In this document: piece after piece, positions 1 to 42,007 of the stretch
Numbering within the stretch: position 1 is the stretch's first letter
How the letters are laid out: each line of letters starts with the position of its first letter
IMG/VR virus record: IMGVR_UViG_3300019762_000006
Span: 1-64,000 of that record
Strand: one strand, 5' to 3'
Length of the DNA stretch: 64,000 nt
Origin: a virus
Position numbers and translations under genes: made by a program
The notes under the pieces: model-generated
The model's input: only the letters and a program-made list of their open reading frames with translations
What the model was told of the DNA's origin: nothing
The model's database searches: none

Positions 1-64
1 CTGCCATAATTTGTTGTGTTATCATTTTATTTTCTCCTTAGTTTCGGCCCGAAGGCCTGGTTGA

Positions 65-715: not shown

Positions 716-778
716 ATTTTTCCTTTAATTTGTAATTGGTGCTAACACCTTTGAACCCACCGAAGTAGGCTCTAACTA

Positions 779-1108
779 TTAACTGTTTGCACTTGCTTGT
801 GCTATAGTGCTCCTAGGTTCTGATATTGTATAAGGTACTTGAAGATGTCTATGAGCATTCTCCTCTGACATACCCCCAGCAACCAGTTTCTTAATACCTT
901 CTTGTATAACCGTAGCATACTCTATTCTTTGTTCAGCAATCGCTGGTTGTAAACTACCATGAATTAACTCTACTGCACTTCTAGCAGTTGTCATTACATC
1001 TGCTATAGTTTGTGATGCCTCCACTACTGCGTCTAAAGTTGATACAGTAGTTCCCTTAAGGCGTTTACCTAATGCTAAGTCGCCTTTATATTCATTTCTA
1101 ATAATCAT
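779..1108 (-). CDS. early hypothetical protein (109 aa)
   Basis: AAAGGA SD; directly downstream of hairpin promoter 1130-1157. Confidence 0.75.
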   Translation of the reverse strand: MIIRNEYKGDLALGKRLKGTTVSTLDAVVEASQTIADVMTTARSAVELIHGSLQPAIAEQRIEYATVIQEGIKKLVAGGMSEENAHRHLQVPYTISEPRSTIAQASANS

Positions 1109-1129
1109 ATGATTCCTTTATAAAATAAT

Positions 1130-1157
1130 CTAATAAAAATAATACTGCGAAGCAGTA
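1130..1157 (-). promoter_or_regulatory. putative virion-RNAP hairpin promoter
   Basis: + (template) strand CTAATAAAAATAA-TACTGC-GAA-GCAGTA; GNA-triloop DNA hairpin as in N4 early promoters. Confidence 0.8.
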
Positions 1158-1160
1158 CAA

Positions 1161-1367
1161 CTAAATAGTACCAAAGCGATTAACTACTTGGGATGAGCTA
1201 ATTGTGGATACTAAATTCTTAAATTGAACATAATATAAGTTTCCTTCTTTACAGAATTCAACATATAGTATTTTACCTATTCTTCTGCTTTTCCCTATGA
1301 TATAAGCTATATGAGTATAGTCTACCATAGGCATTTGTTTATTTGCTGTTTCTTTTAGTTCATCCAT
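1161..1367 (-). CDS. hypothetical protein (68 aa)
   Basis: ORF track; co-oriented with early genes. Confidence 0.55.
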   Translation of the reverse strand: MDELKETANKQMPMVDYTHIAYIIGKSRRIGKILYVEFCKEGNLYYVQFKNLVSTISSSQVVNRFGTI

Positions 1368-1380
1368 TTTCTTCTTTTTG

Positions 1381-1497
1381 TTAAGGTATAAACTGAATTA
1401 ATCCAAATAGTATTGCTAGTACCGCACCTGTTGTTGGGTGTAATAAATACACTCCTCCAATTACTAATAGTCCACCTAGTAGTTTTTCATATTGCAT
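1381..1497 (-). CDS. small membrane peptide (38 aa, MQYEKLLGGLLVIGGVYLLHPTTGAVLAILFGLIQFIP)
   Basis: Translated by hand; AAGGA SD; hydrophobic; below ORF-track cutoff. Confidence 0.6.
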   Translation of the reverse strand: MQYEKLLGGLLVIGGVYLLHPTTGAVLAILFGLIQFIP

Positions 1498-1507
1498 GTC
1501 TAATCCT

Positions 1508-1717
1508 TTATATATTAATATAGTTTCTCTCTTTAGTTCTAACATGCTCATCACATGCTATACAATTTGATAATATTGGCATTGAGTCTGCCCACTCTAC
1601 TACATCTTTGGTGTCTAACATATTGCCACATTCTTTGCACATTATTGCGTATGGTTTTGAGTAGTCTACTTCTTCTACATTTGCCCATCTTTCATTTGAT
1701 ATCTCTTCATTTGTCAT
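1508..1717 (-). CDS. small zinc-ribbon protein (69 aa)
   Basis: CKEC...CIAC pairs; AAGGAG SD. Confidence 0.7.
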   Translation of the reverse strand: MTNEEISNERWANVEEVDYSKPYAIMCKECGNMLDTKDVVEWADSMPILSNCIACDEHVRTKERNYINI

Positions 1718-1831
1718 ATTGTTTTCTCCTTATGTTTGTGATAGGCACACTTATACTTGGGTGCGAACGGGTTACTTGTTATTTAATACTATGTACTTTA
1801 GATGGAATAAAGTATTGAGATAGTTATAAAT

Positions 1832-1858
1832 CTAATAAAAATATAGCTACGAAGTAGC
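1832..1858 (-). promoter_or_regulatory. putative virion-RNAP hairpin promoter
   Basis: CTAATAAAAATATA-GCTAC-GAA-GTAGC; same C-to-loop spacing (19 nt) as the other copies. Confidence 0.8.
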
Positions 1859-1936
1859 ATTAAGAAAAAATTAAGGTTAGAATATTTGAATGTTGGTGTT
1901 TGTGAGTATGCATTAATGTGGGTTTGCATTGAATTC

Positions 1937-2004
1937 AACCCCAAAAGAGACAAAAGTCTCTATAGAGTTTTTAGGAGGATTAAAATTAATTCTGTAGGAG
2001 AATC
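1937..2004 (-). ncRNA. candidate anti-Shine-Dalgarno small RNA (3' end uncertain)
   Basis: No SD-led ORF behind promoter 2004-2031; two CUCCU modules match the RBSs of genes 2839..3177 and 3241..3519; 3' hairpin has G-U pairs on the minus strand. Confidence 0.55.
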
Positions 2005-2031
2005 TAATATAAATACTAATGCGAAGCATTA
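2004..2031 (-). promoter_or_regulatory. putative virion-RNAP hairpin promoter
   Basis: CTAATATAAATAC-TAATGC-GAA-GCATTA. Confidence 0.8.
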
Positions 2032-2104
2032 AGTAAAGTTTAAGATTACACAAAGTGAGTGTATATTAATTATATATATAGGACATTAACTGTAAAGCCA
2101 TTGT

Positions 2105-2176
2105 TTGCTCGATTTTGCGTTTAAAATATGGCACAGTTTGAGCAATATAATTGAAAATGTTGCTCGAATCGAGCAA
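2105..2176. repeat. TTGCTC(G/A)A operator/iteron-like sites
   Basis: TTGCTCGA at 2105, TTGAGCAA at 2138, palindrome TTGCTCGA-A-TCGAGCAA at 2160-2176. Confidence 0.65.
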
Positions 2177-2190
2177 GATTTTATTTGAAT

Positions 2191-2212
2191 TTAAGCTAAA
2201 ACTAAGTATAAT
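2191..2212 (+). promoter_or_regulatory. host sigma70-type promoter
   Basis: TTAAG-N11-TATAAT upstream of 2249. Confidence 0.6.
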
Positions 2213-2248
2213 TGGATTGAAAAAGATTAATTAGCAAAGGATTAGCTT

Positions 2249-2746
2249 ATGAGTAATAACATTATAAACCAGATTAGCTTAAAAGCAAATGAAGAACTGG
2301 TAAAAAGAACAAAACAAAGACATGCTCGATATTTCCATATGGTTGGAAGAGAGCAATTAGTCAATGTAGCCCCGAAAGGCAATACTAAAAAGGAGTGGAG
2401 AATGGAAGGAATAGACTTTATAGATGCTGTTGTAGCAATGAGTGCCAAAGAACAAAAAGTCGTAAAGCTCATTAAGGACTGTATTAAATGGAGTACTGAA
2501 ATGGGTTCTTTAGATTACATTGTAGAACTGAGTCCGGACTCTGTACATTTTAATCCAGATGTTGATGGTACCATGACTTACAATATGTTTCTAAAAGGCT
2601 ATGGACTGTTGTTTAAAAAAGACTTGGTTAGAAGAATAAGTAAAAGTAGATATATGTTTAACCCTGAATTCTTTGTGATAACAGGAGATGCCCAATTGCA
2701 CTTTGATGTAGTATGGCAACAAGCACCAGCCTATAGTATAGTCTAA
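2249..2746 (+). CDS. RepL-like / winged-helix DNA-binding protein
   Basis: C-terminal LFKKDLVRRISKSRYMFNPEFF resembles the RepL-family Y-x-x-NP motif; AAAGGA SD. Confidence 0.5.
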   Translation: MSNNIINQISLKANEELVKRTKQRHARYFHMVGREQLVNVAPKGNTKKEWRMEGIDFIDAVVAMSAKEQKVVKLIKDCIKWSTEMGSLDYIVELSPDSVHFNPDVDGTMTYNMFLKGYGLLFKKDLVRRISKSRYMFNPEFFVITGDAQLHFDVVWQQAPAYSIV

Positions 2747-2805
2747 CTTACTATCAGAGCTGTGTAACCCGTAATCCTTTCAGGCTTACTATCAGCTGTG
2801 TGTAA
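2747..2805. repeat. imperfect 21-nt direct repeat pair
   Basis: CTTACTATCAGAGCTGTGTAA (2747-2767) and CTTACTATCAGCTGTGTGTAA (2785-2805). Confidence 0.7.
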
Positions 2806-2838
2806 GTGTGTAAAGAGTAGAAATGATAGACTTAAAGT

Positions 2839-3177
2839 CTACCATTCTGCTGTTTCACATTGACTTACATCTAGACTCGGATGTTGTAATTCTACAAACC
2901 ACATATTGCCGTTTGTTTGTAAATTGCTTTTAGTTGGGTCTATAGACACAAACATTCTATTATCCATTATAATTTGCCCTCTGCTCCCTATAATAAATAG
3001 TTCTGCTTTGATAAATTCTCCAGACTGTGACTTTAGGAATGCTTTATCTGCGTATTTAGTACCCTTGTTAAGCATAAGTTTAGCATATACATTACACTCT
3101 CTAATCTTAGACTCATCAATACTAAATCCTCTTTTTACACTTGCCACGCCATTATTAAATTTTATTAATTGTTCCAT
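2839..3177 (-). CDS. early hypothetical protein (112 aa)
   Basis: AGGAG SD; beta-rich; acidic/aromatic C-terminus ETAEW. Confidence 0.75.
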   Translation of the reverse strand: MEQLIKFNNGVASVKRGFSIDESKIRECNVYAKLMLNKGTKYADKAFLKSQSGEFIKAELFIIGSRGQIIMDNRMFVSIDPTKSNLQTNGNMWFVELQHPSLDVSQCETAEW

Positions 3178-3220
3178 TTGTTAATTCTCCTACGAATTTA
3201 ATTTGTTAGTCCTAAGACAC

Positions 3221-3248
3221 CTAATATAAAGTAAGGACTGTTAATCCT
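3221..3248 (-). promoter_or_regulatory. degenerate virion-RNAP hairpin promoter
   Basis: CTAATATAAAGTA-AGGACT-GTTA-ATCCT; loop G at +19, stem has one bulge. Confidence 0.45.
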
Positions 3249-3519
3249 CTAATACTTTCTTCTTCTCTGCTAGTTTAGCTTGTAATACTGCTATTCTATC
3301 CATAGACTCAATCTCTGCTTCCATAGAGTCTGCTTTAGCTTCAATGATAGACACCTTTAATGTTTCTTTTGCAATAGTAGTCATGTCGTTTGCTAAGTCT
3401 ATAATGTTTACTGCCACATTAATACCAGATACTGCACCATATCCAATAGCTCCGATAGATGAACGAATTGGGTTCTTTGTAATATACTCTCTTGATTGTT
3501 TGTCGATTTGGTTTGCCAT
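3241..3519 (-). CDS. early hypothetical protein (92 aa)
   Basis: AGGAGG SD; hydrophobic N-half, coiled-coil C-half. Confidence 0.75.
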   Translation of the reverse strand: MANQIDKQSREYITKNPIRSSIGAIGYGAVSGINVAVNIIDLANDMTTIAKETLKVSIIEAKADSMEAEIESMDRIAVLQAKLAEKKKVLED

Positions 3520-3567
3520 AATAATCCTCCTACAGATAATAACTTGTTAGCCCTTAGGCACAATATA

Positions 3568-3596
3568 CTAATATAAATAATAGAGCGATAGCTCTA
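3568..3596 (-). promoter_or_regulatory. putative virion-RNAP hairpin promoter (4-nt loop)
   Basis: CTAATATAAATAA-TAGAGC-GATA-GCTCTA. Confidence 0.7.
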
Positions 3597-3647
3597 CTAG
3601 TTGTTAAACATTGGATATGAATCCTCGTCGTACTGCTCATCAAACAT
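3597..3647 (-). CDS. 16-aa acidic mini-peptide MFDEQYDEDSYPMFNN
   Basis: AAGGAG SD 5 nt upstream; between two hairpin promoters. Confidence 0.45.
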   Translation of the reverse strand: MFDEQYDEDSYPMFNN

Positions 3648-3670
3648 ACTGACTCCTTGTAATTGATATA

Positions 3671-3698
3671 CTACTATAAAGACTGCCATGCAATGGCA
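3671..3698 (-). promoter_or_regulatory. putative virion-RNAP hairpin promoter (GCA triloop)
   Basis: CTACTATAAAGAC-TGCCAT-GCA-ATGGCA; same 19-nt spacing. Confidence 0.65.
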
Positions 3699-3784
3699 CT
3701 GACTGCTCAACAAAAAGGATGTTAAAGCTTCAGCTATGGGGGGTACGGTTTCAATCGGAAGTGTGTAAGGGTGTATACTGTACT

Positions 3785-3860: not shown

Positions 3861-3910
3861 TATAATAACGCAGTCCATGAGATATAAGCCGTATGTAAAA
3901 AAGGATAATC

Positions 3911-30446: not shown

Positions 30447-33400
30447 ATGCCAACTCAAGAAGAACTTCTAAACGCTGTATTCGTAAATACAAATAACACA
30501 CCAAAACAAACAAATAATTCACAATATGTATACGATGCAGATACACTATACCAAAATGGTAATGGGTACAGAGTAGAAGGGATAGATGCTCCTGAGATGC
30601 CATCCTATGCACTAAAGCAAGAAAGAATTGCAAAGGCACTAAAAAGCAAGCTTGGAAGATTCGTTAGTAAAGCAACAGCTGGAGAAGCTGCTAAACTAGA
30701 AGCTGAACTAAGTACACTGAACTTCAATGGGATTGACTCAGGATTCCAAGAAACAAGCTTTAATGACAATCAACTACAACCTACTTACCAAGAAACTCCA
30801 CAATCCGATTCAAAAGGGGTATATGGGAGAGATATACTCAATAACCCAGCATACCAAAATGAACTTGTGGCTAAAGGATATGCAATACCTGCGTTTGATA
30901 ACCAGACACCAGAAGGTCAAGCACTAATGCTAAATGCAAAGAAACAAAAGCTTGGGCTTTGGGCAGATCCGGAATATGCTGCTGAAATGGAAGCAGTGGC
31001 CAATAAAAGAGGTACTAGTACAGTAGAAGAGATACCTGAATACAATATACTAAGGGGCGTGGGTTCTGCTGGATTAGATGTAGCAGCTAAGGTTGGTGGA
31101 CTGATTGGTGAAACTATTGAGTCTGCTGGTGAAGGAATTGGAGTAGATGCTGTTAAAAACAGCGGAACAGCATTGCAAAATGCCTTTACAGAGTTCCAAA
31201 GAAAACAGTATGGTAAAGAGATAACTGGGTATGTAAGTAGAAATGTAGATGAGCTTAGCGCTGAAATAGACGATACAATAAAAAAAGATGGATACATGTC
31301 TGCAATAGCTAAGGCTGTGACAGACCCAAGATCACTGGAAGTACTTGCAAATAGTGTGCCTGAAATGATAGCACTTGCGGCTAGTGTTGGAGGTATGGCT
31401 GTAGCGAATGTGAACAATAACATAAATATGGCCGAAGCTGAATTAGGTAGAAAATTAGACACAAAAGAAAAGGTGTTGAGTGCTAGTGCTAGTATAGTTG
31501 GTACGTACATGGATAGATTTGGTGACAAATTGGCACTTAGTGGGATGAATCCTACTAAAGAAGCACTAAAGACTGTGATAAATAAAATGAGCCAAGAAGG
31601 TAAAAATACACTTAGTAAGAAGTATGGTAAAGAGATACTTACAATAAGTTCTGCTCCACTTAGACTAGCTAGTGCAGGTGCTATTGAAGGATTGACTGAA
31701 AAAGGTCAAACAATGCTAGAAACTGCTGCACAAACTCCTAGAGTATTCGAGGAAGGATTTACAAAAGAAGAACTAGATGAATCCAATGTTGCTGGTGTAC
31801 TTGGGGTTACTATGGGTACACAAATGGCAAGTCCAAAAGTTGTTTATGATGTAGCTACGAAAACAGTGCCAAGTCTTCCAAAGGCTAGTAAAGATATACT
31901 AGAACGAGCTACAGAGACAGAAGCACAACGTAAAGTAAGAGAAACTACTGAAGTAAGTGCTCCAATTAGAGAGGCTGCAATAGACAGTACACTAAAAGGT
32001 GACACAGACAGTGTGGTAAAATCAGCTGAGGAGATGCATGGTAAATTAGCTAAAGAGTTAGATGGAAGTGCTCCAAAGAAGTATACATACAATGTGGTAC
32101 TATCAAATGCACTGAATAGAGCACACGAGTCGAATGATGACACAGCAATAGCTAATGTGTACAAAACAATTGGTGATTTAAATAACCGAAAAGATGTAGA
32201 CTTCAAAGCATCTGAAATGGTAGATAGTAGAATGTACGAAGCTACTAAGGAGTTTCTGGACTTAGTCAACAAAAATGACTTAACAGCAACAGATAAAATG
32301 GAAGCAATAAACTTAGGTAAAAAGATAGGTGAGAATGCTACTGAACAAAGTGCTAGTAAAAGTAACATACTAACTGAAGTAAGATTGATGAAAGAGCAAT
32401 TGGAAAAAGAGAAAAAAAGCTTAAAGTCAGTTAAAGGCTCAGAAGACTTTGGTGGACCAATAGATAAGCTAATGAAAATAGTAGATGATTACTTAGAAAA
32501 TAGAGATGCTGAAAAAGTGAATGCTCAAGTAATGGACTTAGGGTACATAGAATTGGATCCCACAAGTGGTGTACTAAAAGCAGATCCAAATAGACCTGGG
32601 TTACGTGTATATGCTAAAGAGCTAGAAAAACAGATGCTAAACCCTAACACTAATAAGAACTTACTAGATAAAAAAGTAGTTGCTAGTGGACAAGTAACAA
32701 TACCAAAGCTAGCTAAATTTGCTAAGAGTAGACTAGATAAACTAAATCCATACAAAGATAATTCTGCGTACCAAACAAGCTCATTACTAAACACACTCAA
32801 GGCCGAAAATGAACAAATGAGTAACACAATAGTAGAACTAGTGAAGATTGCTAGTAAATTAGAAATAGACAAAGAAATAAAAGATAAGTATGTAGCAAAG
32901 CTAAAAGAAGCTGGTAAAAGTGCTGTAGAAGCAAATAAAGAGATGCTAAGAAGAGAAAAGTTAATAAATGACACAACTAAACCAAGTGGAAATGGACAAC
33001 TTGCGTTCCAAGTAGACCCAGATGGTACTGAATCAATAAGACTGGTAAGTGGTGAAAGTAACACAAAAGTTGCTGATGTAGTAGATGGTAAAGTTGTGCC
33101 AATTGCACAAGAACAGAATGCGGAACAAGTTGCAGATAAACCTCTAAGTAATGCTTCAATAGTTGAAAAAGCTCCAACTAAAGAATCAATGAAAGAAGAG
33201 GGTGTAAGAAATGCTAAAAATGTGACAACTGCACCAAAGCCAAAGCAAACAGTAGTGCAATGGTTAACAGCACAACTGGATGAAATGGTTGATAACCAAA
33301 AAAAGACAATGGTAGAAGCTGCTAAAGAAATAAATGACTACTTAAGTGCACAAGGATTAGATAAAGATACAATTACTAAGTACAATGTAATACTTAGAAA

Positions 33401-36400
33401 GCTGGTAAAAGATAGAGTGGATGAAAAGAAAACTCCTCTGAATAAAGTAAGAGCTAGGGTATCAGAATTGGATACAGAACTAAGTAAGCTAGTTGAAAAC
33501 GTTGAGGATATGAATATGCTAGTACACGTAAAAGAGTACTACAAAAGAAAACTTGGTGAAGTACAAGCTGAAAGAACTACATTGAATAAGGTGCTTGATA
33601 GAATGGAGGCAGAACTAACTAAGAGAACTGGTACAAATAGAGTAAGCAAGTTAAGAGAGCTTGCTGACAAACTAATAAAAGGTATGGTAAGAGCACTACA
33701 AGAAGTTAAAAAAAGAATAAATCTAGTAAACGCTGAGCACGATAGATTAACATCAGAGCTAAATGAAATATCAACAATGATAAAAACAATTGAAGAAGAA
33801 TACATAGGTACAGTAGAACCCGAGATAGAGACTAGACAAACATCAATAGGAGAAATAACAAGATATGAAGATAGTGCTTATGGACCTATGGTAGAGCTTG
33901 GTAACAAAAGAGTAAATGCTAGAAGAACCCTAAGTCCAACAGGTAAGGTAGTACAAAGTCCGTCAAGTGCGTTGAATGATGCAATGGAAGTACTAAAACA
34001 GGATAAAATAGAAGAGTTGAATGCAGAATTAACAGAACTTGCTAGTGAAGGTATAACAAGCTTAGGAGCTAAAATACTAAAAAGAAACCTAGAAAACTTC
34101 CCAATAGTGTCTCCAGTACATAAAATACTTACTAGTGGGTATGATAGTGTATTCGGAAAGCTAGAAGGAAATATATTCAAAGATGCTGATAAATTACTAG
34201 AAGTGTTACCAAAAGGATTCAAAGACTTCTTTGCGTCAGACAAAGAGAATGAACAGGCACTAATAGATAACTTCCAAACAATGAGCAAGTATATAGAAAA
34301 TACTAAAATTGGAGATATAAAAATTGGTTCAAATAGGATTAGTAAACATATAGATCAATTTGGATTGGTAATGAACCAAAAGCTTGGGTTTGTGCCAATT
34401 GAAAGACAACTAATAGTTGGTGACAGAGTAAAGATTGGTGAAACAACATACTTAATAGGTAAAATAGAAGGAGATAAAGCTACTGTAACAATCCCAGGTA
34501 AGAAAGGTACAAGCACAAAGAAACTAAGTGAGTTCCAATCAGTTAGAGAGAAACAGCCTGAATCGTTTCCAGTAGATATAATAGAACTAATAGGAACTGT
34601 GAAAGATGATAAACTGGAGATAGATGAACAAACTGAAACAATACTAAAGTTCTACACAGCTAAGATGGTAACCGATACACAAGCTATGATTGGTAAAATA
34701 CTAAGCTTCGATGAATCAGAAATGGGACTGTACTTAGGTATCACAGATCCAGATGAACAGATAAAAGTCAAACAAGATGCACAAAATGGTTTGGTAAATT
34801 CTGCAAGTGTACGGTCAGATATAGGGAATGAAGTATACCAAGCACTAGGAATAAAGTTAACAAAGAATACTCCTGAGTTTACTGAAGAATCACTAACATC
34901 TGCGTTAGGTGTACTAGTACAAGCAATAGCAGTAGATAATGGTACAATGTCAATGGATAAGCTAACTGCAGAGAAGAATACAAACTTGATACAAGTAAAC
35001 AGAGCAGCAGTAGATAAAGCACTAGAAGTAGATGGTAGAGGTACTGAACAATTAGCAAAAGCGATGAGTAAACTACAGTACTTGAATGAAGCTAGAAATA
35101 GACCCCTACCAAAAACTGCAAAGCCTAAGCGTAAGACTAGTAGAAATGTAATGAATACAAAAATACCTATGGATGCATTGAATAACGATAAACTGAATGA
35201 TATGGAACAAATAGCATATACAATTAGTCCTAAACTACAAATGTGGTTGGCTATGGATGAAACAGAAGCATTGAAAGCCAGAGGATACGTAGAAGTTGAG
35301 TCTGCTGGTCTGCATATAAGTGAACAAGATGCACAACAAGCCAGAAATGATAAATTGGTAAGAGAATGGGAAATACTTAAGATATTTGCTCAAGCAACAA
35401 AGAATAAAAAGTTTTACTTAGATTGGGGTCAAACAGTAAGTGGTAGATTCACAATACTAAATGACATACAGTACCAAGAAAGTAAACTGCATAGAGAGTT
35501 TGTGGTAGCAGACAATAGCACAGAGACAATAGATGTAAATGATGCTGATTCAAGACAAATGTTGGAAGCTAGCATACTACAAGGGTTAGACATGGACCCA
35601 GATAAGTTAAGTACAGAAACAGCTAGTGCTAACTTCAATAAACTGTTCAAAGTAACAGATAAAGGAATTGAGGTAACTGAAAAAGGGGCAGTAAAAACAG
35701 CATATGAAGCATTGAGAGCTGGTAAGGTAGATGCGGATGCAATGGCAGAAGTATTTGCTGATTCAGAGGGACATCATGGTATAAGCTCAATAGAGTTGCT
35801 AGTAGATTGGAACAAAGCAATAGTAGATGGTACTACACTAGAAACACACGCTAACTTAGAAATTGATGCGATAACAAGTGGTATGATACTAACATTACTA
35901 CAAATAGGTACAGATAAAGCAATAGAACTTGCTGAAAAAGGTGGAATATATACGGCTGATAGAGCAAAAGAACTAGAAGCATATGTAAAACATTGGTTGG
36001 GTGATGTAACATTTACTCCAGGAGCATTGATTGAAGCTGGTAAGAAACACGCATCAGCAATTGAATCTGGTACAGATAAAAAGTTGCTAAAAGGACAAGA
36101 AACTAACTTACAAAGTGATACAGTATTCAAAGACCTGTACTCAACAATTGGGGTTGGGATGATTGAAGAAGTTCAAACATATAAAGAGAGATTACTAGCA
36201 AAATCGGATAAGACTGAGTCTGAAATGAAACAACTTGCAATGTTAAATGAGATCGGAGAGTTGAACTTAAAGAATATCCGATCAATTGCAAAGAGTCCTG
36301 TAATGGTATACATATACGGAGCAACAGTAAACTCAATTAAGAAAAAGTTAACATACTCACTTGGAATAGATACACTAGTTAAGACAATAAAGAAAGCTAG

Positions 36401-38000
36401 TAAACTACTAAAAGAGGGAAAAGATGCTGGTAAAGAGTTGGGGTTTGTAGATATGTATATACCAAACAAAGTGTACAAAGATAGATTCGGTGGTAAGATT
36501 GCAGATAATATGCCAGAGTGGAAAAAGTTGCTACACTTAGATATAGATAGTGGCACAATAAAAACAGTAGGAGATGTGATCAATGCAACATTTGGAACAG
36601 CAATTGAAACAACATTCGATAGTAGACTAGGATTCGTAGATAGAAATAGGGATGCAGTAAAAACCCTAGAAATAATAGCGTTCGAAGCATACCAAGTAAG
36701 ACTGGCCGAAGAAGTAGAAAACTTGCTAAATAGTAGATACGGGGAAGCAAAGCATGAAGGTGAGTCCTACAAAATAAGTAAAGATGACTTGGTAAACATA
36801 AACAACAAACTGACTGCACAAGGGTATGGGCATGACATCGTATGGGATGAAGCAGGTAGAGATAGAGTAAACCAAACACTTAACAAGACTGGTACTAAAG
36901 GGGGATTACATTCAAGTAGTGTGACAGTTGGTGACACAAAAGTTGGAGGGCAGATAAAACAGAATAAAGCAATAGTAAATACAGGTGCTGCATCAACAAT
37001 ACCAATCCATGCAATAGATGGTAGGATGATACTAGAAACACTAAATAGAGAATTAAAAGGTCCGCTAAAGGGTAAATACCATGGTGGGAATGTGTATGAT
37101 GCTGTAGTGCTAAGTGCTAACAAAGCAATGCTAACAGACACAGCAGACTACTACAATAAGAATATGATTGAAATAGGGTTCAGTAGATCAATAGTAGCAG
37201 ACCAAATGGCCCTAGTAGAGAATATGCTAAGTACAATGAGTGACAAACAAAAAGTAAAGATGTTCAATAGATTAGGTCTAAGACCTGAAGGAGATACTAG
37301 AGAAGACTTTACAAAAGAAGTAAACAGACTTCACTTAGGAACTGGTAAAATGCTGGAGAGACTAGAATTAGCTGAAACAACGAATAAGGAAAGATTAGTA
37401 AATAGTGGTAAAGAGTACATGTCTGGACATCTGTACCAAATGGGTTCAGGAGTAGTAAATATACCTGCTAGTGAGGTAAGAGCTAAAGAGTTCCCAGCAA
37501 TAACAACACTTAAAACAATGCTAGAAAATAAGATGATTGCTGATAGAAAACAAACAGCTGAGGAATTTGCTAGTAAGACAACAGGACAGCCAGACTATGT
37601 GCTAAACTTGTATGATATAACACAGAATACACAAGTTAAGTCAAAAGCAAATATAGCACAAATGGTGAATAAAGGCGATAAGCTAAAAGTTAGTGATAAC
37701 TTAACAGAATCTCTAGGTAGCAAAGATACAGTTGAAATAGTAGGTTCAGTTGGTAGTGAGTTAAACAATAGTCAAAAGTGGTGGTTAAATAATATGAAAA
37801 ATAATATACTTGCATCAGATGCTGGTATAGTAGCTAATAGCAATACATCAGAAAAGACAATGAGTGAATCAGGTAGAGAGCTAATTGAGGGTGTGTGGGT
37901 TAAACAAAAAGAAGCTAAAAACAAGCTAGAAAAAGATATAATAACTCCAAGTGAAGCATTCAAAAAGAATGTAAATAACAAGATAGAATGTAAGGAATAG
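30447..38000 (+). CDS. virion RNA polymerase, N-terminal plus catalytic part (N4 gp50-like), with N-terminal thermonuclease domain
   Basis: T/DxxGR (TVSGR), motif A EIDAITSG, motif B RSIAKSPVMVYIYG, motif C VYDAV; SNase motifs DADT / RVEGIDAPE / YGR / GLW. Confidence 0.9.
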   Translation: MPTQEELLNAVFVNTNNTPKQTNNSQYVYDADTLYQNGNGYRVEGIDAPEMPSYALKQERIAKALKSKLGRFVSKATAGEAAKLEAELSTLNFNGIDSGFQETSFNDNQLQPTYQETPQSDSKGVYGRDILNNPAYQNELVAKGYAIPAFDNQTPEGQALMLNAKKQKLGLWADPEYAAEMEAVANKRGTSTVEEIPEYNILRGVGSAGLDVAAKVGGLIGETIESAGEGIGVDAVKNSGTALQNAFTEFQRKQYGKEITGYVSRNVDELSAEIDDTIKKDGYMSAIAKAVTDPRSLEVLANSVPEMIALAASVGGMAVANVNNNINMAEAELGRKLDTKEKVLSASASIVGTYMDRFGDKLALSGMNPTKEALKTVINKMSQEGKNTLSKKYGKEILTISSAPLRLASAGAIEGLTEKGQTMLETAAQTPRVFEEGFTKEELDESNVAGVLGVTMGTQMASPKVVYDVATKTVPSLPKASKDILERATETEAQRKVRETTEVSAPIREAAIDSTLKGDTDSVVKSAEEMHGKLAKELDGSAPKKYTYNVVLSNALNRAHESNDDTAIANVYKTIGDLNNRKDVDFKASEMVDSRMYEATKEFLDLVNKNDLTATDKMEAINLGKKIGENATEQSASKSNILTEVRLMKEQLEKEKKSLKSVKGSEDFGGPIDKLMKIVDDYLENRDAEKVNAQVMDLGYIELDPTSGVLKADPNRPGLRVYAKELEKQMLNPNTNKNLLDKKVVASGQVTIPKLAKFAKSRLDKLNPYKDNSAYQTSSLLNTLKAENEQMSNTIVELVKIASKLEIDKEIKDKYVAKLKEAGKSAVEANKEMLRREKLINDTTKPSGNGQLAFQVDPDGTESIRLVSGESNTKVADVVDGKVVPIAQEQNAEQVADKPLSNASIVEKAPTKESMKEEGVRNAKNVTTAPKPKQTVVQWLTAQLDEMVDNQKKTMVEAAKEINDYLSAQGLDKDTITKYNVILRKLVKDRVDEKKTPLNKVRARVSELDTELSKLVENVEDMNMLVHVKEYYKRKLGEVQAERTTLNKVLDRMEAELTKRTGTNRVSKLRELADKLIKGMVRALQEVKKRINLVNAEHDRLTSELNEISTMIKTIEEEYIGTVEPEIETRQTSIGEITRYEDSAYGPMVELGNKRVNARRTLSPTGKVVQSPSSALNDAMEVLKQDKIEELNAELTELASEGITSLGAKILKRNLENFPIVSPVHKILTSGYDSVFGKLEGNIFKDADKLLEVLPKGFKDFFASDKENEQALIDNFQTMSKYIENTKIGDIKIGSNRISKHIDQFGLVMNQKLGFVPIERQLIVGDRVKIGETTYLIGKIEGDKATVTIPGKKGTSTKKLSEFQSVREKQPESFPVDIIELIGTVKDDKLEIDEQTETILKFYTAKMVTDTQAMIGKILSFDESEMGLYLGITDPDEQIKVKQDAQNGLVNSASVRSDIGNEVYQALGIKLTKNTPEFTEESLTSALGVLVQAIAVDNGTMSMDKLTAEKNTNLIQVNRAAVDKALEVDGRGTEQLAKAMSKLQYLNEARNRPLPKTAKPKRKTSRNVMNTKIPMDALNNDKLNDMEQIAYTISPKLQMWLAMDETEALKARGYVEVESAGLHISEQDAQQARNDKLVREWEILKIFAQATKNKKFYLDWGQTVSGRFTILNDIQYQESKLHREFVVADNSTETIDVNDADSRQMLEASILQGLDMDPDKLSTETASANFNKLFKVTDKGIEVTEKGAVKTAYEALRAGKVDADAMAEVFADSEGHHGISSIELLVDWNKAIVDGTTLETHANLEIDAITSGMILTLLQIGTDKAIELAEKGGIYTADRAKELEAYVKHWLGDVTFTPGALIEAGKKHASAIESGTDKKLLKGQETNLQSDTVFKDLYSTIGVGMIEEVQTYKERLLAKSDKTESEMKQLAMLNEIGELNLKNIRSIAKSPVMVYIYGATVNSIKKKLTYSLGIDTLVKTIKKASKLLKEGKDAGKELGFVDMYIPNKVYKDRFGGKIADNMPEWKKLLHLDIDSGTIKTVGDVINATFGTAIETTFDSRLGFVDRNRDAVKTLEIIAFEAYQVRLAEEVENLLNSRYGEAKHEGESYKISKDDLVNINNKLTAQGYGHDIVWDEAGRDRVNQTLNKTGTKGGLHSSSVTVGDTKVGGQIKQNKAIVNTGAASTIPIHAIDGRMILETLNRELKGPLKGKYHGGNVYDAVVLSANKAMLTDTADYYNKNMIEIGFSRSIVADQMALVENMLSTMSDKQKVKMFNRLGLRPEGDTREDFTKEVNRLHLGTGKMLERLELAETTNKERLVNSGKEYMSGHLYQMGSGVVNIPASEVRAKEFPAITTLKTMLENKMIADRKQTAEEFASKTTGQPDYVLNLYDITQNTQVKSKANIAQMVNKGDKLKVSDNLTESLGSKDTVEIVGSVGSELNNSQKWWLNNMKNNILASDAGIVANSNTSEKTMSESGRELIEGVWVKQKEAKNKLEKDIITPSEAFKKNVNNKIECKE

Positions 38001-38002: not shown

Positions 38003-41000
38003 ATGGGTTGTTCAGCACAAGATCAAATAGCAGGCTACAAAACAATAAATAAAAAGTTAAGAGAATTAAATCCAAATGTAGATCCAATAGGACTGCAGTT
38101 TGGTATAAACAAGTACTGGCTAGGCTTAGAAAATAATATAATGACTGATGCTGAAAAAGATGTATACAACACATTAGTAAAGCAAACAGAAGGGATAGCA
38201 TTAATAAACTTAGGCGGAACTAAACAATTGCAAGAACAGTTGGTGTTCGTTAAAGACATAGGTAAAGAGTATGTAATACATTTAGAAAGTGGTAAAAACT
38301 ACACATTCGAAAAAGGTAAAGCACAAAGTAATCCAACAAGAGCTGGTAGAACAGTAATGATGCCTGCAATGGAATTGACTAAAACATATCAAAATTCTGT
38401 AAAAGGTAGTGACCAAAACACACAAATAGGAGAAACTGAAGCAGATAAATTCATAGAACAAGAAGTAATAGATCTAGGCACAACACTAACAGATAAGTTC
38501 ATGGAAATGGCTGAGATGAATCAGGAAAGTTCAGGGTTAAAAGAACTAAGAAACAAAATGAAGATAATTGGTGAGTATGAAGTAAAGATAAATGAGTACA
38601 ATGCAAGAAATGAAGAAGCTCCAGCAAAGTTAATGGAAGACTACAACAAAACCTACGATGAGGCTGAAGCAATACAAGCAACACTGACAGAGTTTGAAGT
38701 ACTGACATCAACTGTGTTAAATACATACCAAGTAACAATGACTAATTTAGGCACTGGTGAACTAAAGATGCAAATGTTTGAGAATGCAAATAGCCAAACT
38801 GCGGCATCTATAGATTTGCGAACAAATGAAATGAAAGCTAGATGGAATAAAATGTCAAGAATAACAAACTTGAGTGAAGCGTTCCTACATGAGATAAACC
38901 ACAAGATGTCAAGTCACGTGTTCGATGCAAATGTACAACTAACAAGACTAATGAAAGACTTGCGAGATAGTGCAATAAATAGTGGTGTAACCTATGAACT
39001 GTTTCTAGACAAGATTGCTGATCCAACAGAACAAGAAATAGAAATAGCAAAGATGAAGTTTAAGTATGTGTTTGACAAAACAGCAGATATAGAAGAGTTC
39101 TACGCATATGCAACAACAAATGAGCAAGTATACAATGCGATAAAAGATGTGAAGATATCAATACCGCTAATAAAAGACCTTGAAATAGACCCTAGTAAAC
39201 CAAGCTCAATAAAAAAGGTACTAAATGCACTAATAAAAACAGTAAATACAATATGGACAACGCTAAGTGGAAGAGGAAAACGTGGTGGTCAACTAGTAGC
39301 AGAAATGGTAACAACAATAGCTAAACTAGATGCAGAAATGATGCAACAAAAAATGGTAGATGAGAATGAACAGCCTGGAGTAAGTAGCTACGCAAGAGCT
39401 AAAATGAATAGCATAGATGAGCTAATAGAACCTGTGGTAAAGAAAGTGGGAGATTGGTCAGAGAAGTTAAGTGAAGCTGGACCAAAAGATGTAAGTAAGC
39501 AAATAGCCAAAATACCAGTACTAAATGAACTAATGAATACTGGAATAACCCAATACTTGTGGAGAGCGGTAACGCAAGATACAACAACAGAGGATGTGGC
39601 AGATATGTACGCAGTGTTTAGACATAGTAAGCAAGTGGTAGAGAAACATACAGCAGACATTAGAAATGGGGTTAAGTCAGTAGCAACTGAAATGTTCAAA
39701 GACACAGACAAAACAACAAAAGACGCAATAACAAAAGTAGTACTAAGTGGAGATATGGCACAGTTCACAGCAAGTGAGATACAAGAGTACCTAAATGAGC
39801 CTGCTAAAATACAAGAAGAAATAGAAAAGCTAACAAAAATAGTACATTTGGGAGCAAGTAAAGAACTAGTAAAAAGTAGGGATAAGCAAATAGATGGACT
39901 AGCTGAGTACTTAGTAAGTGGTAAAACAGTAGCACATGATCAACAAATAAATGCAAATAATATAGCAGCAAATATGCAAATAGCGCATAGAGTGCCAAAA
40001 AGAAAGATGCCTGAAAGACCAAGTAAAGAATTAATCGATACGATAGATAAAATAGTGTCCCTAAAAGTGCTCCAAAAGTCCGATGAAGTACACACTAAAG
40101 CAATAAAAGAGTTGGTGTCTAATAAAGACGGAGTAGAATTGCTAGATAAAACAATAAATATGTATAGAGGATACATAGATAACATGAGAGCAGATGCAAC
40201 AATAGATGCACATGATCCAATACCAAAAGGATACACAAGACCAGCAGATGGACTGCTAAGATACGAGTTAATCCCTGAAGATGAAGTAAAAGCTCAGGAA
40301 AGTGTGCTAATGAGATTGGTAAATGATAAACCGTACACAATAGTAGAAGGTAAAAAATACTACTTAATGACGGGTAGAACTAAGTCAGTAGGGTTCAGTG
40401 AAGGTGCTATTGGGTTAATATCACATACAACTGAAGGTATACCCCTAAGTTCACTAATAAGAAAAAACAATGAAATGAAAGGAAATAAAGGACTAATAGA
40501 TGGGGAACTAAGAGCTAAAACAAAACAGATAGTAGAAGCAATTAGAAATTCAAAAAATGGTAGAATAAATAAGTTTGCAATGATAGAAGGACAAACACTA
40601 GTACCAGTGTACAACCACAGAAATGAGATAGTAGACTACAGAATACAGTTGAATAACCTAGAAAAAGAGATGTACTTGCCAGATAGAGAAACAGAGATAG
40701 AAGATATACTAAGTAACACATTCAGTAGAAGTATAAAAACTTCACTAACAGCCACAGAGAACAAAAGAGTGGTAGATACAATAATAGAAAACAGTGGTAG
40801 AGGAGTACTAGAAAATCCAGATGACTACGTGCTAGTAGAAGAATATACTGAAGAAGATAAAATGAATGGTGTTAAGCGTGAAAAAAGGCATGATAGATGG
40901 GAATACTTACCAGACCACACAAAAGACTACATATATCAAAGAACTAGCAATAAAGGTATACTAGTACACAAAGACTTCGTAGAATTAATGACTGGTGAAA

Positions 41001-42007
41001 AAGATGTGACGATTGGGAACTTTGCAAAGTTTGGGTTTGATATGAAACAACACCCTGTAGCAAAAGCTAGATTAATGGCATTGGAAGCCTATATAACTGA
41101 AATACTAAGCTATGTGAAGCAAGCAATGGTTGTGCTAAATGGGGATATACTAGTTGGTAACCAAGTGAGTAATGCAATGGTAGCAGCAAGTCACGGAATA
41201 AACCCAGTAAAATACACTAAAAAGTTCAAACAGAGATGGCAACAATTAAATGACTACAATGAAAAAGTACAAATGTTATCAGAGTTAGAAGTTAAGCAAA
41301 TGGCTGGTGAAAATGTTGGGTTAGAGATAAGACAACTGAAGAAACAGTTAGAAGGTAATATATGGGATGAATTGGTAAAAGATGGTCAATACACTGCGTT
41401 AGTGGAAGACGTAAATATAGAAGCTAAACTAGATGGACAAATTGCAACAATGGTACAACAACAAATAGATAAAAGTAACTTCAAAGGAATAATAGAAGGA
41501 GTTAGAAATGGTCTGTATATAGATAAAACAACAGCACTGTATCAAACAATGGCAAAATCAGTACACTATGGTGATGCGATAACAAGACAAATAATAAAAG
41601 AAGAATTGGAAGAAAAAGCAATAAAGAGAGAAGGAGAGTTAACAGAAGATGTAAAAAAAGATATACTAAACTACCTAGATCAGTTGCTAGTAAACTACGG
41701 ATACACAATGAACCGGTGGTGGAAGTACTCAGAGAGAGTGGGAGGGTTGTTCTTTATGCGATACTACATGGGACAAGCAAAAGCTATAATGAGTATGGCA
41801 AAAAAGAGTCCAACAAGGACAGCACTACTGCAAGGTGTGCAAAAAGTGACTGGTGTGGATATAGCAGACCCAATAGACACATATACCAATAGTGGTATAG
41901 ATGGAGTAACTTATAGGCATATGTTTACAGAAGCTCCTTACTTATTAGCAGAACCTAACATACTTGATCTTATACCCGACATGTCCGCGGCATTTGTAAT
42001 GAGGTAG
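38003..42007 (+). CDS. vRNAP C-terminal part as a separate ORF, with zincin-like domain
   Basis: FLHEINH and EEFYAYATTN; INANNIA, LVPVYN, HYGDAITR, LVNY resemble N4-type vRNAP C-terminal regions. Confidence 0.8.
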   Translation: MGCSAQDQIAGYKTINKKLRELNPNVDPIGLQFGINKYWLGLENNIMTDAEKDVYNTLVKQTEGIALINLGGTKQLQEQLVFVKDIGKEYVIHLESGKNYTFEKGKAQSNPTRAGRTVMMPAMELTKTYQNSVKGSDQNTQIGETEADKFIEQEVIDLGTTLTDKFMEMAEMNQESSGLKELRNKMKIIGEYEVKINEYNARNEEAPAKLMEDYNKTYDEAEAIQATLTEFEVLTSTVLNTYQVTMTNLGTGELKMQMFENANSQTAASIDLRTNEMKARWNKMSRITNLSEAFLHEINHKMSSHVFDANVQLTRLMKDLRDSAINSGVTYELFLDKIADPTEQEIEIAKMKFKYVFDKTADIEEFYAYATTNEQVYNAIKDVKISIPLIKDLEIDPSKPSSIKKVLNALIKTVNTIWTTLSGRGKRGGQLVAEMVTTIAKLDAEMMQQKMVDENEQPGVSSYARAKMNSIDELIEPVVKKVGDWSEKLSEAGPKDVSKQIAKIPVLNELMNTGITQYLWRAVTQDTTTEDVADMYAVFRHSKQVVEKHTADIRNGVKSVATEMFKDTDKTTKDAITKVVLSGDMAQFTASEIQEYLNEPAKIQEEIEKLTKIVHLGASKELVKSRDKQIDGLAEYLVSGKTVAHDQQINANNIAANMQIAHRVPKRKMPERPSKELIDTIDKIVSLKVLQKSDEVHTKAIKELVSNKDGVELLDKTINMYRGYIDNMRADATIDAHDPIPKGYTRPADGLLRYELIPEDEVKAQESVLMRLVNDKPYTIVEGKKYYLMTGRTKSVGFSEGAIGLISHTTEGIPLSSLIRKNNEMKGNKGLIDGELRAKTKQIVEAIRNSKNGRINKFAMIEGQTLVPVYNHRNEIVDYRIQLNNLEKEMYLPDRETEIEDILSNTFSRSIKTSLTATENKRVVDTIIENSGRGVLENPDDYVLVEEYTEEDKMNGVKREKRHDRWEYLPDHTKDYIYQRTSNKGILVHKDFVELMTGEKDVTIGNFAKFGFDMKQHPVAKARLMALEAYITEILSYVKQAMVVLNGDILVGNQVSNAMVAASHGINPVKYTKKFKQRWQQLNDYNEKVQMLSELEVKQMAGENVGLEIRQLKKQLEGNIWDELVKDGQYTALVEDVNIEAKLDGQIATMVQQQIDKSNFKGIIEGVRNGLYIDKTTALYQTMAKSVHYGDAITRQIIKEELEEKAIKREGELTEDVKKDILNYLDQLLVNYGYTMNRWWKYSERVGGLFFMRYYMGQAKAIMSMAKKSPTRTALLQGVQKVTGVDIADPIDTYTNSGIDGVTYRHMFTEAPYLLAEPNILDLIPDMSAAFVMR

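What the first reader, a model, noticed from the sequence alone, without database searches (positions are those of the whole stretch)
1937..2031. Candidate vRNAP-transcribed anti-Shine-Dalgarno sRNA aimed at two of the earliest genes
Seen: hairpin promoter 2004-2031 has no SD-led ORF behind it. Its minus-strand product would read GAUUCUCCUACAGAAUUAAUUUUAAUCCUCCUAA, then a hairpin AACUCUA.AGAGAC-UUUU-GUCUCU..UGGGGUU whose G-U pairs work only on this strand. Module 1 (AUUCUCCUAC-A-GAAUU-AAUUU) is complementary, with two 1-nt bulges, to the leader of gene 2839..3177 (+ strand 3184-3204, ATTCTCCTACGAATTTAATTT). It also pairs 13 nt, with one G-U, to the leader of 3241..3519 (ATCCTCCTACAGA). Module 2 (UAAUCCUCCUA) is an 11/11 match to 3522-3532. 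Pairing extends beyond the SD core, and other early RBSs match much less. Inference: a trans-acting timer that silences earlier genes, or an RNA antitoxin for toxic early proteins.
Basis: partly seen in the sequence, partly recalled or inferred. Interest (0 to 1): 0.85.

Follow-up and report, generated by a model that had tools for sequence, protein, structure and literature searches.

The report
Early phage RNA mirroring ribosome sites
Behind one hairpin promoter of this uncultured N4-like phage lies a short gene-less unit, kept in every related phage that could be checked, whose start mirrors the ribosome-binding sites of the phage's first two early genes; it probably makes a small RNA that turns their translation down, but no transcript has been seen.

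Summary
Observation confirmed. Window 2004-2031 is one of six N4-type template-strand hairpin promoters, all in the early block. No SD-led ORF follows it. Its minus-strand product carries two CUCCU segments and a strand-specific hairpin.

Among 121 RBS windows of the 90-kb genome, the leaders of 3241..3519 and 2839..3177 rank 1 and 2 (-25.5 and -23.2 kcal/mol; next -18.0). Shuffles that keep the cores reach both in 0 of 300.

The unit occurs in 11 of 11 related loci with enough upstream DNA. In the four lineages that hold the first two early genes, their leaders are the best local partners, with 10-16 bp helices. Shuffles reach both in 0 of 1000 per lineage.

Weak points:
- No RNA data exist.
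- Start and end of the transcript are inferred.
- Module 2 is specific to this window.
- In one relative another RBS scores better genome-wide.
- A DNA-level reading is not excluded.

Best reading: an early RBS-masking sRNA made by the virion RNA polymerase, with the logic of the P1/P7 c4 RNA; confidence about 0.5. The scan noted similar anti-SD RNAs in other phages.

The parts
2004..2031 (-). Hairpin promoter Pc. The + strand is the template. It holds stem 2017-2022/2026-2031, loop GAA 2023-2025, and the shared A/T-rich block 2004-2015.
   Evidence: It has the same design as five promoters that precede early genes. The loop G..A and the closing C:G follow the N4 rule quoted. The orientation matches N4 P1 and P2.
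1988..2004 (-). Module 1: a conserved anti-SD segment (UUCUCCUAC) inside a weak 5' hairpin, AUUCU[CCUAC]AGAAU.
   Evidence: The core T-C-TCCTA is invariant in 6 of 6 aligned lineages.
1972..1982 (-). Module 2: a second anti-SD segment (UAAUCCUCCUA), single-stranded in the predicted fold.
   Evidence: It matches 3522-3532 at 11 of 11 positions. It is not conserved in the relatives.
1937..1969 (-). Terminal hairpin: inner stem 1946-1951/1956-1961, plus an outer helix that needs G-U pairs. It is a possible but weak terminator, with UUU and then GGGG after the stem.
   Evidence: The terminator scan does not list it. Relatives have a clearer hairpin with a U-rich tail at the same place.
1859..1936 (-). 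Spacer up to the next promoter. It ends in a U6 tract (A-run 1865-1870 on the + strand). An equivalent U-rich tract precedes the second promoter in all relatives.
   Evidence: A 43-codon ORF here crosses the next promoter and is not conserved.
1832..1858 (-). Next hairpin promoter, Pd: stem 1846-1850/1854-1858, loop GAA. It drives 1508..1717.
3523..3537 (-). Target 1: SD region of the leader of early gene 3241..3519 (92 aa).
   Evidence: Rank 1 of 121 at -25.5 kcal/mol. Helix of 14 bp with two G-U. Cofold gain -17.7 kcal/mol.
3184..3204 (-). Target 2: SD region of the leader of early gene 2839..3177 (112 aa).
   Evidence: Rank 2 of 121 at -23.2 kcal/mol. Cofold gain -18.7 kcal/mol. The leader is kept while the coding sequence is replaced in strain variants.
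3568..3596 (-). Hairpin promoter of 3241..3519 (loop GATA on the template strand).
3221..3248 (-). Degenerate hairpin promoter of 2839..3177 (loop GTTA, 4-bp stem). It overlaps the stop codon of 3241..3519.
   Evidence: read by eye. The homologous promoter in L005 at 1748 is intact.

Best explanation
The stretch 2031->about 1937 (minus strand) is a separate, non-coding early transcription unit.

Proposed mechanism:
1. The injected virion RNA polymerase starts at hairpin promoter Pc and makes an RNA of about 70 nt. If the weak hairpin is read through to the U6 tract, the RNA is about 150 nt.
2. The 5' part carries a conserved pyrimidine segment, (U)UC(C)UCCUA(C/U). It is presented in or beside a weak hairpin loop.
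3. This segment pairs across the Shine-Dalgarno region of the mRNAs of the first two early genes. Those leaders show the mirror-image loop GUAGGA.
4. Pairing keeps 30S subunits off these two messages and lowers their translation once DNA further in is transcribed.

Status of each step:
- Shown: the sequences, the complementarity and its statistics, conservation of the unit and of the pairing in relatives, and the absence of an ORF.
- Inferred: that the hairpins are virion-polymerase promoters, where the RNA starts and ends, that the RNAs meet, and that pairing represses.
For: Promoter class and coding:
- The promoter class is confined to the early block and sits on one strand. A virion RNA polymerase gene is present (phrog_2206, E 3e-42 and 3e-69).
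- The loop G..A with closing C:G on the template strand fits the N4 requirement (passages). The orientation is that of N4 P1 and P2.
- 0 of 10 units have an SD-led ORF of 10 or more codons on the RNA-like strand.

Conservation:
- The unit is present in 11 of 11 related loci with enough upstream DNA. The other 5 of 16 are cut 228 nt or less upstream.
- The anti-SD core is invariant, while the rest of the unit cannot be aligned.

Structure:
- The RNA-like strand folds better than its complement in 5 of 5 lineages, with z from -2.6 to -5.7. Each ends in a hairpin followed by a U-rich tail.
- L040 turns a U-G pair of the terminal stem into C-G, which makes sense only on this strand.

Targets:
- Ranks 1 and 2 of 121 in this genome.
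- Shuffles reach the values in 2, 0 and 0 (both) of 300.
- The two leaders are the top two local partners in WIN, L005, L030, L033 and L038, with helices of 10-16 bp. L030 and L038 have 16 perfect pairs.
- Shuffles reach both values in 0 of 1000 in each of four lineages.
- Cofold gains are -17.7 and -18.7 kcal/mol, against -7.1 and -5.1 for two other early leaders.
- L005 has changed CUGUAGGAG/CUCCUACAG to CCAUAGGAG/CUCCUAUGG on both sides.
- 8 of 8 target leaders fold with a 6-nt loop that holds the start of the SD.
Against: - No RNA evidence exists. Only DNA metagenome runs hold this phage.
- The promoter geometry differs from N4 (start 11 nt from the loop centre, template C at +1) and from LUZ7 (13-14 nt). 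A conserved 12-nt A/T block lies between hairpin and module, so the 5' end is unknown within about 10 nt.
- The window's own terminator is weak, and the scan does not list it.
- Genome-wide in relative G001, the two leaders rank only 2 and 3 of 138. Another gene's RBS scores -24.7.
- The cognate sRNA is the best partner in 3 of 4 rows for the second gene. For the first gene it is best outright in one row, shares best in two rows whose leaders are identical, and is beaten in one. L033 has an A-C mismatch inside the extended helix.
- The 5' hairpin pairs in a different register in each lineage. It is therefore not a covarying helix, and it partly hides the seed.
- Targets and sRNA use the same promoter class, so a delay needs ordered DNA entry, which is not shown here.
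Confidence: 0.5

Rival explanations
1. The unit is transcribed but works differently. It could be an upstream leader of the next operon through read-through, with the anti-SD acting in cis. It could also be a general anti-SD competitor that dampens all strongly SD-led messages, host ones included.
For: - The window's hairpin is a weak terminator, and the U6 tract lies just before Pd.
- In L005 the seed also matches the RBS of the next gene downstream (cofold gain -9.0) and of a distant gene.
- The core is the generic complement of AGGAGG.
Against: - In the L030 clade the gene downstream has a weak AAGG site with no match to the seed.
- Relatives have clear terminal hairpins with U tails before the next promoter.
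- Pairing extends 4-10 nt beyond the SD core, specifically to two leaders.
Confidence: 0.17
2. The element works at the DNA level. The inverted copy of the leader motif would be a site for a DNA-binding protein, or a second template-strand hairpin that tunes promoter Pc. The RNA pairing would be a by-product.
For: - The motif is the same in three places, in both orientations, and lies close to transcription starts.
- The palindromic arms around it change register between lineages, as a loose DNA palindrome might.
Against: - Most differences between seed and leaders are wobble-compatible: two in WIN, three and one in L005. This count is biased, because helices are extended through G-U pairs.
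- The motif overlaps working SD sites.
- No candidate binding protein is known.
- The strand-specific folds and U tails are not explained.
Confidence: 0.15
3. The hairpin plus T-rich block are intrinsic terminators, not promoters, so no separate RNA starts here.
For: The terminator scan lists four of these hairpins on the minus strand. Some directly follow stop codons (1157 after 1161..1367; 3596 after the 16-codon ORF).
Against: - The loops always read G..A on one strand, across 6 sites here and all sites in relatives. Terminator loops are free to vary.
- The T-rich block is a fixed motif at a fixed distance.
- The sites occur only in the early block of a phage with an N4-type virion polymerase.
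- Pc and the triple array in the L030 clade have nothing upstream to terminate.
- N4 P1 has the same core.
Confidence: 0.08
4. The segment is a functionless relic of an inverted duplication of an early leader.
For: The seed is the reverse complement of the leader over up to 16-21 nt. An inverted duplication would produce exactly this.
Against: The segment is kept in 11 of 11 assessable loci, whose neighbouring protein is only 58-68% identical. The core is invariant while the rest of the unit cannot be aligned.
Confidence: 0.05

Closest known systems
c4 antisense RNA of phages P1 and P7
   Same: It is a phage-encoded small RNA that acts in trans on a message of the same phage. It uses short complementary segments placed in loops around the ribosome-binding site, and so blocks translation (review passages).
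   Different: c4 belongs to temperate-phage immunity and is made by the host polymerase. Here the RNA would be an early product of a virion polymerase in a presumably lytic N4-like phage. There is no sequence or model similarity: no Rfam family matched at E up to 1.
N4 early promoters P1-P3 and LUZ7 early promoters (virion RNA polymerase hairpin promoters)
   Same: A template-strand hairpin with a G..A loop and closing C:G, located in the leftmost early region and repeated before early genes.
   Different: - A conserved 12-nt A/T block follows the hairpin.
- No template C lies at the N4 distance.
- Loops of 3 or 4 nt occur.
- The passages I read describe early promoters that drive genes, and no ORF-less early unit.
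LUZ7 sRNA1-3 (N4-like Pseudomonas phage)
   Same: Small non-coding RNA candidates in an N4-like phage.
   Different: They are late-stage transcripts from the orf69-orf70 spacer, with no stated targets. They are neither early nor driven by a hairpin promoter.
C-rich or anti-SD seed sRNAs of bacteria (RsaE/RoxS, RNAIII, 6C). Recalled from memory, not checked here.
   Same: An unpaired pyrimidine-rich motif in loops or linkers pairs with SD sequences to block initiation.
   Different: They are cellular regulators with many targets. Here a phage RNA matches an extended 'private' SD context of two of its own genes.
Kissing-loop antisense control (CopA/CopT, hok/sok). Recalled from memory.
   Same: Mirror-image hairpins whose 6-7 nt loops are complementary. 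Here the loops are GUAGGA in 8 of 8 leaders and UCCUAC in the RNA.
   Different: Those pairs are encoded on opposite strands of one locus. Here the two partners lie 1.2-2.6 kb apart on the same strand.

Membership tests
N4-type virion RNA polymerase hairpin promoter | Inverted repeat forming a 5-7 bp stem with a short loop on the template strand. The loop has 5' G and 3' A, with a closing C:G pair. | tested here: met
   2017-2031 reads TAATGC-GAA-GCATTA on the + (template) strand. The rule is taken from passages in PMC4496689. N4 P1 has the same GC-GAA-GC core.
N4-type virion RNA polymerase hairpin promoter | Start site at a fixed short distance: loop centre at -11 with template C at +1 in N4, or a G start 13-14 nt from the centre in LUZ7. 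| tested here: not met
   Only A/T lies 10-18 nt from the loop centre. Template C2016 is 8 nt from the centre and varies between strains. The nearest conserved template C is 19 nt from the loop G (note e1-6122081). The geometry differs, and the start is unknown.
N4-type virion RNA polymerase hairpin promoter | The genome encodes a virion RNA polymerase, and the promoters cluster in the early region. | tested here: met
   phrog_2206 hits on 30447..38000 and 38003..42007. The motif occurs only at 1130-3698 on one strand of the 90-kb record.
N4-type virion RNA polymerase hairpin promoter | Transcription from the site by the virion polymerase. | not testable with these tools
   No RNA runs hold this phage.
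Trans-encoded RBS-masking sRNA (c4-like logic) | A discrete non-coding unit with its own promoter and terminator. | tested here: inconclusive
   - No SD-led ORF in 0 of 10 units.
- The promoter is inferred.
- The terminal hairpin with U tail is clear in relatives.
- It is weak in the window, and the scan does not list it.
Trans-encoded RBS-masking sRNA (c4-like logic) | Complementarity to the target ribosome-binding sites beyond chance. | tested here: met
   Ranks 1 and 2 of 121. Shuffles reach both in 0 of 300 and in 0 of 1000 in each of four lineages. One weaker case: ranks 2 and 3 of 138 in G001.
Trans-encoded RBS-masking sRNA (c4-like logic) | Co-variation of seed and target across relatives. 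| tested here: inconclusive
   - One clear two-sided change in L005.
- GGAGA in both partners in WIN against GGAGG in both in the L030 clade.
- The cognate is best in 3 of 4 rows for the second gene.
- Only four lineages could be compared, and two of them are close.
Trans-encoded RBS-masking sRNA (c4-like logic) | Expression of the RNA and repression of the targets. | not testable with these tools
   No RNA holder is listed, and the phage is uncultured.
Rfam families (including C4) | A covariance-model match. | tested here: not met
   0 matches at E up to 1 on window 1-4200, both strands.

The most novel reading that the evidence does not exclude
A whole clade of N4-like phages encodes a riboregulator made by the injected virion RNA polymerase. 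It is a short early RNA whose anti-SD loop 'kisses' mirror-image leader hairpins of the genes at the first-entering genome end. It shuts those genes off as soon as DNA about 1-2.5 kb further in is transcribed. This would be an RNA timer built into transcription-coupled genome entry. The regulated 'slot' is the leader rather than the protein, since strains swap the gene behind it.
Probability: 0.4. Interest if true: 0.8.

Novelty: new variant of a known kind. Interest (0 to 1): 0.65.

Why it matters
N4-like phages are the textbook case of transcription by an injected polymerase, and their early regulation is described purely in terms of polymerases and protein cofactors. If real, this would be the first regulatory RNA assigned to a virion-polymerase regulon.

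It would show post-transcriptional shut-off of the very first phage genes. It would also give a compact, portable pair (a leader of about 20 nt and an RNA of about 70 nt) that can be tested in ordinary reporter assays.

My four literature searches listed no paper describing such an early RNA. These searches cover open-access full text only, and I saw only the listings. I read passages of three papers.

Other agents of this scan reported similar anti-SD RNAs in unrelated phages. Those notes are unchecked by me. If they hold, the strategy would be widespread.

Tried and rejected
Searches that gave nothing:
- DNA search and protein search of the GenBank phage collection: no match.
- IMG/VR pattern scan: 21 stretches. 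Only L016 is real, and it is the same contig as L005. The other 20 have no hairpin upstream.
- IMG/VR protein scans gave only two relatives, L004 and the L005 contig.
- Genome contigs: nothing.
Long contigs that encode homologues P0009, P0044, P0089, P0028 and P0018 therefore could not be fetched.
- Rfam: no hit.
- PHROGs and Pfam gave no function for the targets or their neighbours.

Sequencing runs:
- No RNA holder is listed; the four runs are microbial-mat DNA.
- Laying them gave only strain variation. In X2 there is no difference in 1928-2004, but only 6 differences in the whole 884-nt piece, so this says little.

Readings considered and dropped:
- A + strand ORF using the AGGAG sites. There is no start codon at a usable distance. 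The 48-codon TTG frame 1886..2032 and the 43-codon minus frame are not conserved.
- A small opposite-strand ORF in the L030 clade. It has 8 codons and is not conserved.
- Homology of the early proteins to N4 gp1 or to each other: none.
- The 660-aa gene of L005 as N4 RNAPII. BLASTP gives E 1.3 and Pfam gives nothing, so this is only a hint.

Checks with limited weight:
- The 5' hairpin as a covarying helix: the registers differ.
- A wobble-versus-mismatch tally: it favours RNA pairing, but the way helices are extended biases it.
- Supplementary tables of the LUZ7 paper (TSS lists) were not seen.

Full report
WHAT THE WINDOW IS. The window is bases 1-64000 of an 89,998-bp IMG/VR virus record. 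The record comes from microbial-mat metagenomes. It encodes an N4-type virion RNA polymerase split into two ORFs, 30447..38000 and 38003..42007 (phrog_2206, E 3e-42 and 3e-69). It also encodes a terminase and structural genes on the + strand. A block of small minus-strand genes lies at 1-3700.

THE PROMOTER CLASS. On the + strand of 1130-3698 lie six copies of one design: an A/T-rich block (CTAATAWAAATA or a variant), then a 4-6 bp stem with a loop that starts with G and ends with A.
- The copies lie at 1130-1157, 1832-1858, 2004-2031, 3221-3248 (degenerate), 3568-3596 and 3671-3698.
- A strict search of the whole 90-kb record finds the four perfect copies only here, and only in this orientation.
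- A narrower pattern gives 2 matches against 0 in 100 shuffles.
- Five of the six copies stand 30-120 nt upstream of a minus-strand ORF.

In N4 the template-strand loop needs a 5' G, a 3' A and a closing C:G (passages of PMC4496689). N4 P1 and P2, read in the N4 record, have the same orientation relative to their genes, and P1 has the same GC-GAA-GC core. I therefore read these sites as virion-polymerase promoters that fire leftward. This is an inference.

The geometry differs from N4, where the start lies 11 nt from the loop centre at a template C. It also differs from LUZ7, where the start is a G at 13-14 nt (passages of PMC9163698). Here 12 conserved A/T positions follow the hairpin. The 5' end of any product is therefore uncertain by about 10 nt.

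The terminator scan lists four of the hairpins as terminator-like. I rate that reading low for three reasons:
- The loops are constrained on one strand.
- The T-rich block is a fixed motif.
- Pc has nothing upstream to terminate.

THE OBSERVATION. Behind Pc there is no SD-led ORF. As RNA, the minus strand of 1937-2004 folds into three parts:
- a weak 5' hairpin, AUUCU[CCUAC]AGAAU;
- a single-stranded linker that holds the second anti-SD segment;
- a 13-bp interrupted hairpin that needs G-U pairs.

The fold energy is -16.7 kcal/mol (z -2.58), against -14.5 for the complement. The window's hairpin is a poor terminator, with three U and then GGGG, and the scan does not list it. A U6 tract follows 75 nt later, just before the next promoter.

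IS THE COMPLEMENTARITY MORE THAN AN SD MIRROR? I called 122 genes with a crude ORF-plus-SD rule of my own. I dropped three dubious calls and added two by hand. I then scored the first 47 nt of the putative RNA against the -35..+6 windows of all 121.
- The leaders of 3241..3519 and 2839..3177 rank first and second, at -25.5 and -23.2 kcal/mol.
- The third value is -18.0. The mean is -9.65 and the standard deviation 3.97.
- I kept both CUCCU cores and shuffled the flanks 300 times. The shuffles reached the first value 2 times, the second 0 times and both 0 times.
- The best of 121 reached -25.5 in 9 of 300 shuffles.
- Cofolding of the whole RNAs predicts net gains of -17.7 and -18.7 kcal/mol, against -7.1 and -5.1 for two other early leaders.
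- GTAGGAG serves as an RBS only at these two genes.

RELATIVES. The GenBank phage collection holds no relative. IMG/VR holds one relative, a 96.8-kb contig (L005 = G001). It also holds a fragment with a homologue of the 165-aa gene in another context (L004). A metagenome scan with the conserved 109-aa early protein gave 15 loci at 58-68% identity.

Of the 16 related loci, 11 have more than about 230 nt upstream of that gene, and all 11 carry the unit. The other five are cut 228 nt or less upstream. Ten of the unit sequences are distinct. The unit consists of:
- a hairpin promoter. Three lineages (WIN, L005, L029) share the stem TAATGC/GCATTA; the L030 clade has TCAC/GTGA;
- the A/T block;
- the segment (U)UC(C)UCCUA(C/U);
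- variable sequence that folds into one or two hairpins;
- a U-rich tail;
- the next hairpin promoter, immediately after.

In a six-lineage alignment the invariant columns are the promoter block and T-C-TCCTA; the rest does not align. No unit has an SD-led ORF on the RNA-like strand (0 of 10).

In 5 of 5 lineages the RNA-like strand folds better than its complement, with z from -2.6 to -5.7. In L005, L030 and L037 the anti-SD segment is unpaired in the minimum-energy fold. L037 has a different terminal hairpin at the same place. L040 turns a U-G pair of the stem into C-G. Both changes fit an RNA read from this strand.

TARGETS IN RELATIVES. In every lineage the order along the early strand is the same:
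1. a promoter with a 16-codon ORF (in WIN and L005);
2. a promoter with the 92-aa-type gene;
3. a promoter with a second gene;
4. an opposite-strand module that differs between lineages;
5. a long spacer;
6. the ORF-less unit.

The first two genes are on the fetched DNA in WIN, L005, L030, L033 and L038; L030 and L038 are nearly identical. In all five, their leaders are the two best partners among the local SD-led starts (4 to 23 leaders per locus). The helices are 10-16 bp long, and in L030 and L038 16 pairs are perfect. With the CUCCU core kept, 1000 flank shuffles per lineage reached both observed energies 0 times in each of the four lineages. For single leaders the counts were 0-3, except 32 for the first leader of L005.

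L005 reads CCAUAGGAG in the second leader and CUCCUAUGG in the RNA, where WIN reads CUGUAGGAG and CUCCUACAG. That is a two-sided change. WIN alone has GGAGA in both partners of the second pair, while the L030 clade has GGAGG in both.

RESULTS AGAINST OR WEAKENING THIS READING.
- Genome-wide in G001 (138 crude genes), the two leaders rank 2 and 3 at -22.5 and -21.6. An unrelated gene's RBS ranks first at -24.7.
- In a cross-lineage matrix the cognate RNA is the best partner in 3 of 4 rows for the second gene. For the first gene it is best outright in WIN, shares best in L030 and L033, whose leaders are identical, and is beaten in L005.
- L033 and L030 each have one A-C mismatch that cuts an otherwise longer helix.
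- Module 2 and the 21-nt bulged pairing occur only in this window.
- The small 5' hairpin pairs in a different register in each lineage. It is not a covarying helix, and in WIN and L029 it partly covers the seed.

MIRROR HAIRPINS. All 8 target leaders that I folded show a 3-5 bp stem with a 6-nt loop (GUAGGA, AUAGGA or UGUAGG). These folds are no more stable than shuffles, with z from -1.0 to +1.2. Because the RNA is the leader's mirror image, its loop is complementary. A loop-loop first contact is therefore possible, but it is only a suggestion.

MECHANISM AND TIMING. In N4 the leftmost part of the genome, which holds all virion-polymerase promoters, enters first. Early transcription drives further entry, and only about four polymerase molecules are injected (passages).

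Here the early block meets the rightward late block at about 3.7-3.9 kb. By analogy this is where the first-entering end should lie, which is an inference. The two targets would then be the first genes in the cell, and the ORF-less unit would follow 1.2-2.6 kb later. A unit of 70-100 nt would also release its polymerase faster than an mRNA unit. This fits a shut-off or dose limiter for the first two products, but none of it is shown.

Strain variants in three other mat samples replace 2811-3182, the coding part of the second target, with another gene. Its start resembles the L005 and L030 gene in that slot. The variants keep the leader. The regulated thing therefore looks like the leader slot, not a particular and possibly toxic protein.

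COMPARISON WITH WHAT IS KNOWN. RBS-masking small RNAs are a known kind. The closest phage example is the c4 RNA of P1 and P7 (passages of PMC12197685). No Rfam family matches. In N4-like phages, the passages I read of the LUZ7 transcriptome paper report nine early start sites that drive genes, and sRNA candidates only late in infection. My searches listed nothing on an early RNA made by a virion polymerase. I saw only the listings, and supplements were closed.

Other agents of this scan reported anti-SD RNAs matched to early RBSs in unrelated phages. I did not test those notes.

VERDICT. Expression, ends and effect are untested. It is a new variant of a known kind. Interest 0.65.

Noticed in passing
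window 2811-3182: In contigs of three other microbial-mat runs (X2, X3, X4), this stretch is replaced by about 356 other letters. It holds the coding sequence of 2839..3177 up to 5 nt before its start codon. The start of the replacement resembles the second early gene of L005 and L030. The leader and promoter are kept, so this looks like a gene-swap slot behind a fixed leader.
   Followed up: partly
window 2040-2830: The only rightward gene in the early block is 2249..2746 (165 aa, no family hit). It has a sigma-70-like promoter, TTGAAT-16-TATAAT at 2185-2212, and a perfect palindrome at 2160-2176 with half-sites nearby. Its homologue in L004 sits between a 759-aa and a 261-aa gene, like window 59.7-63.0 kb, with its own palindromes. 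Relatives carry different opposite-strand modules at this place (L005 2604..3690, L029 519..1712, L030 2820..3595).
   Followed up: partly
window 3600-3650 (minus) and L005 1332-1382: A 16-codon ORF with its own hairpin promoter (3671-3698) and SD lies upstream of the first early gene. It is present in both phages with a similar EQYD core. It may be a translated mini-gene.
   Followed up: no
L030 4433-4524 (also L033, L034-L038): In the L030 clade a second ORF-less unit of about 90 nt follows the first, between two further hairpin promoters. It shares a motif (AAUCCGC...UUAAGU...CUAU) with the long leaders behind the second promoter in WIN (about 1740-1775), L005 and L029. This could be a second conserved RNA element.
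   Followed up: no
window 30447-42007: The virion RNA polymerase is split into two adjacent ORFs of 2517 and 1334 aa. They match the middle and the C-terminal parts of the N4-type profile.
   Followed up: no
L005 6684-8666: A 660-aa gene at the end of the early block aligns weakly with N4 RNAP2 over 243 residues, including motif-like PxxxDxSxSxL and YGS stretches. The evidence is thin: BLASTP E is 1.3, Pfam gives no hit, and PHROGs gives only families of unknown function. It may be a fused second phage RNA polymerase. The window's homologue runs off base 1.
   Followed up: partly
L005 3940-4030; L029 1790-1840; L030 4130-4160: The long spacer upstream of the ORF-less unit holds short repeated words (for example TTGTACA several times in L005). 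They could be iterons or operator arrays of the neighbouring opposite-strand module.
   Followed up: no
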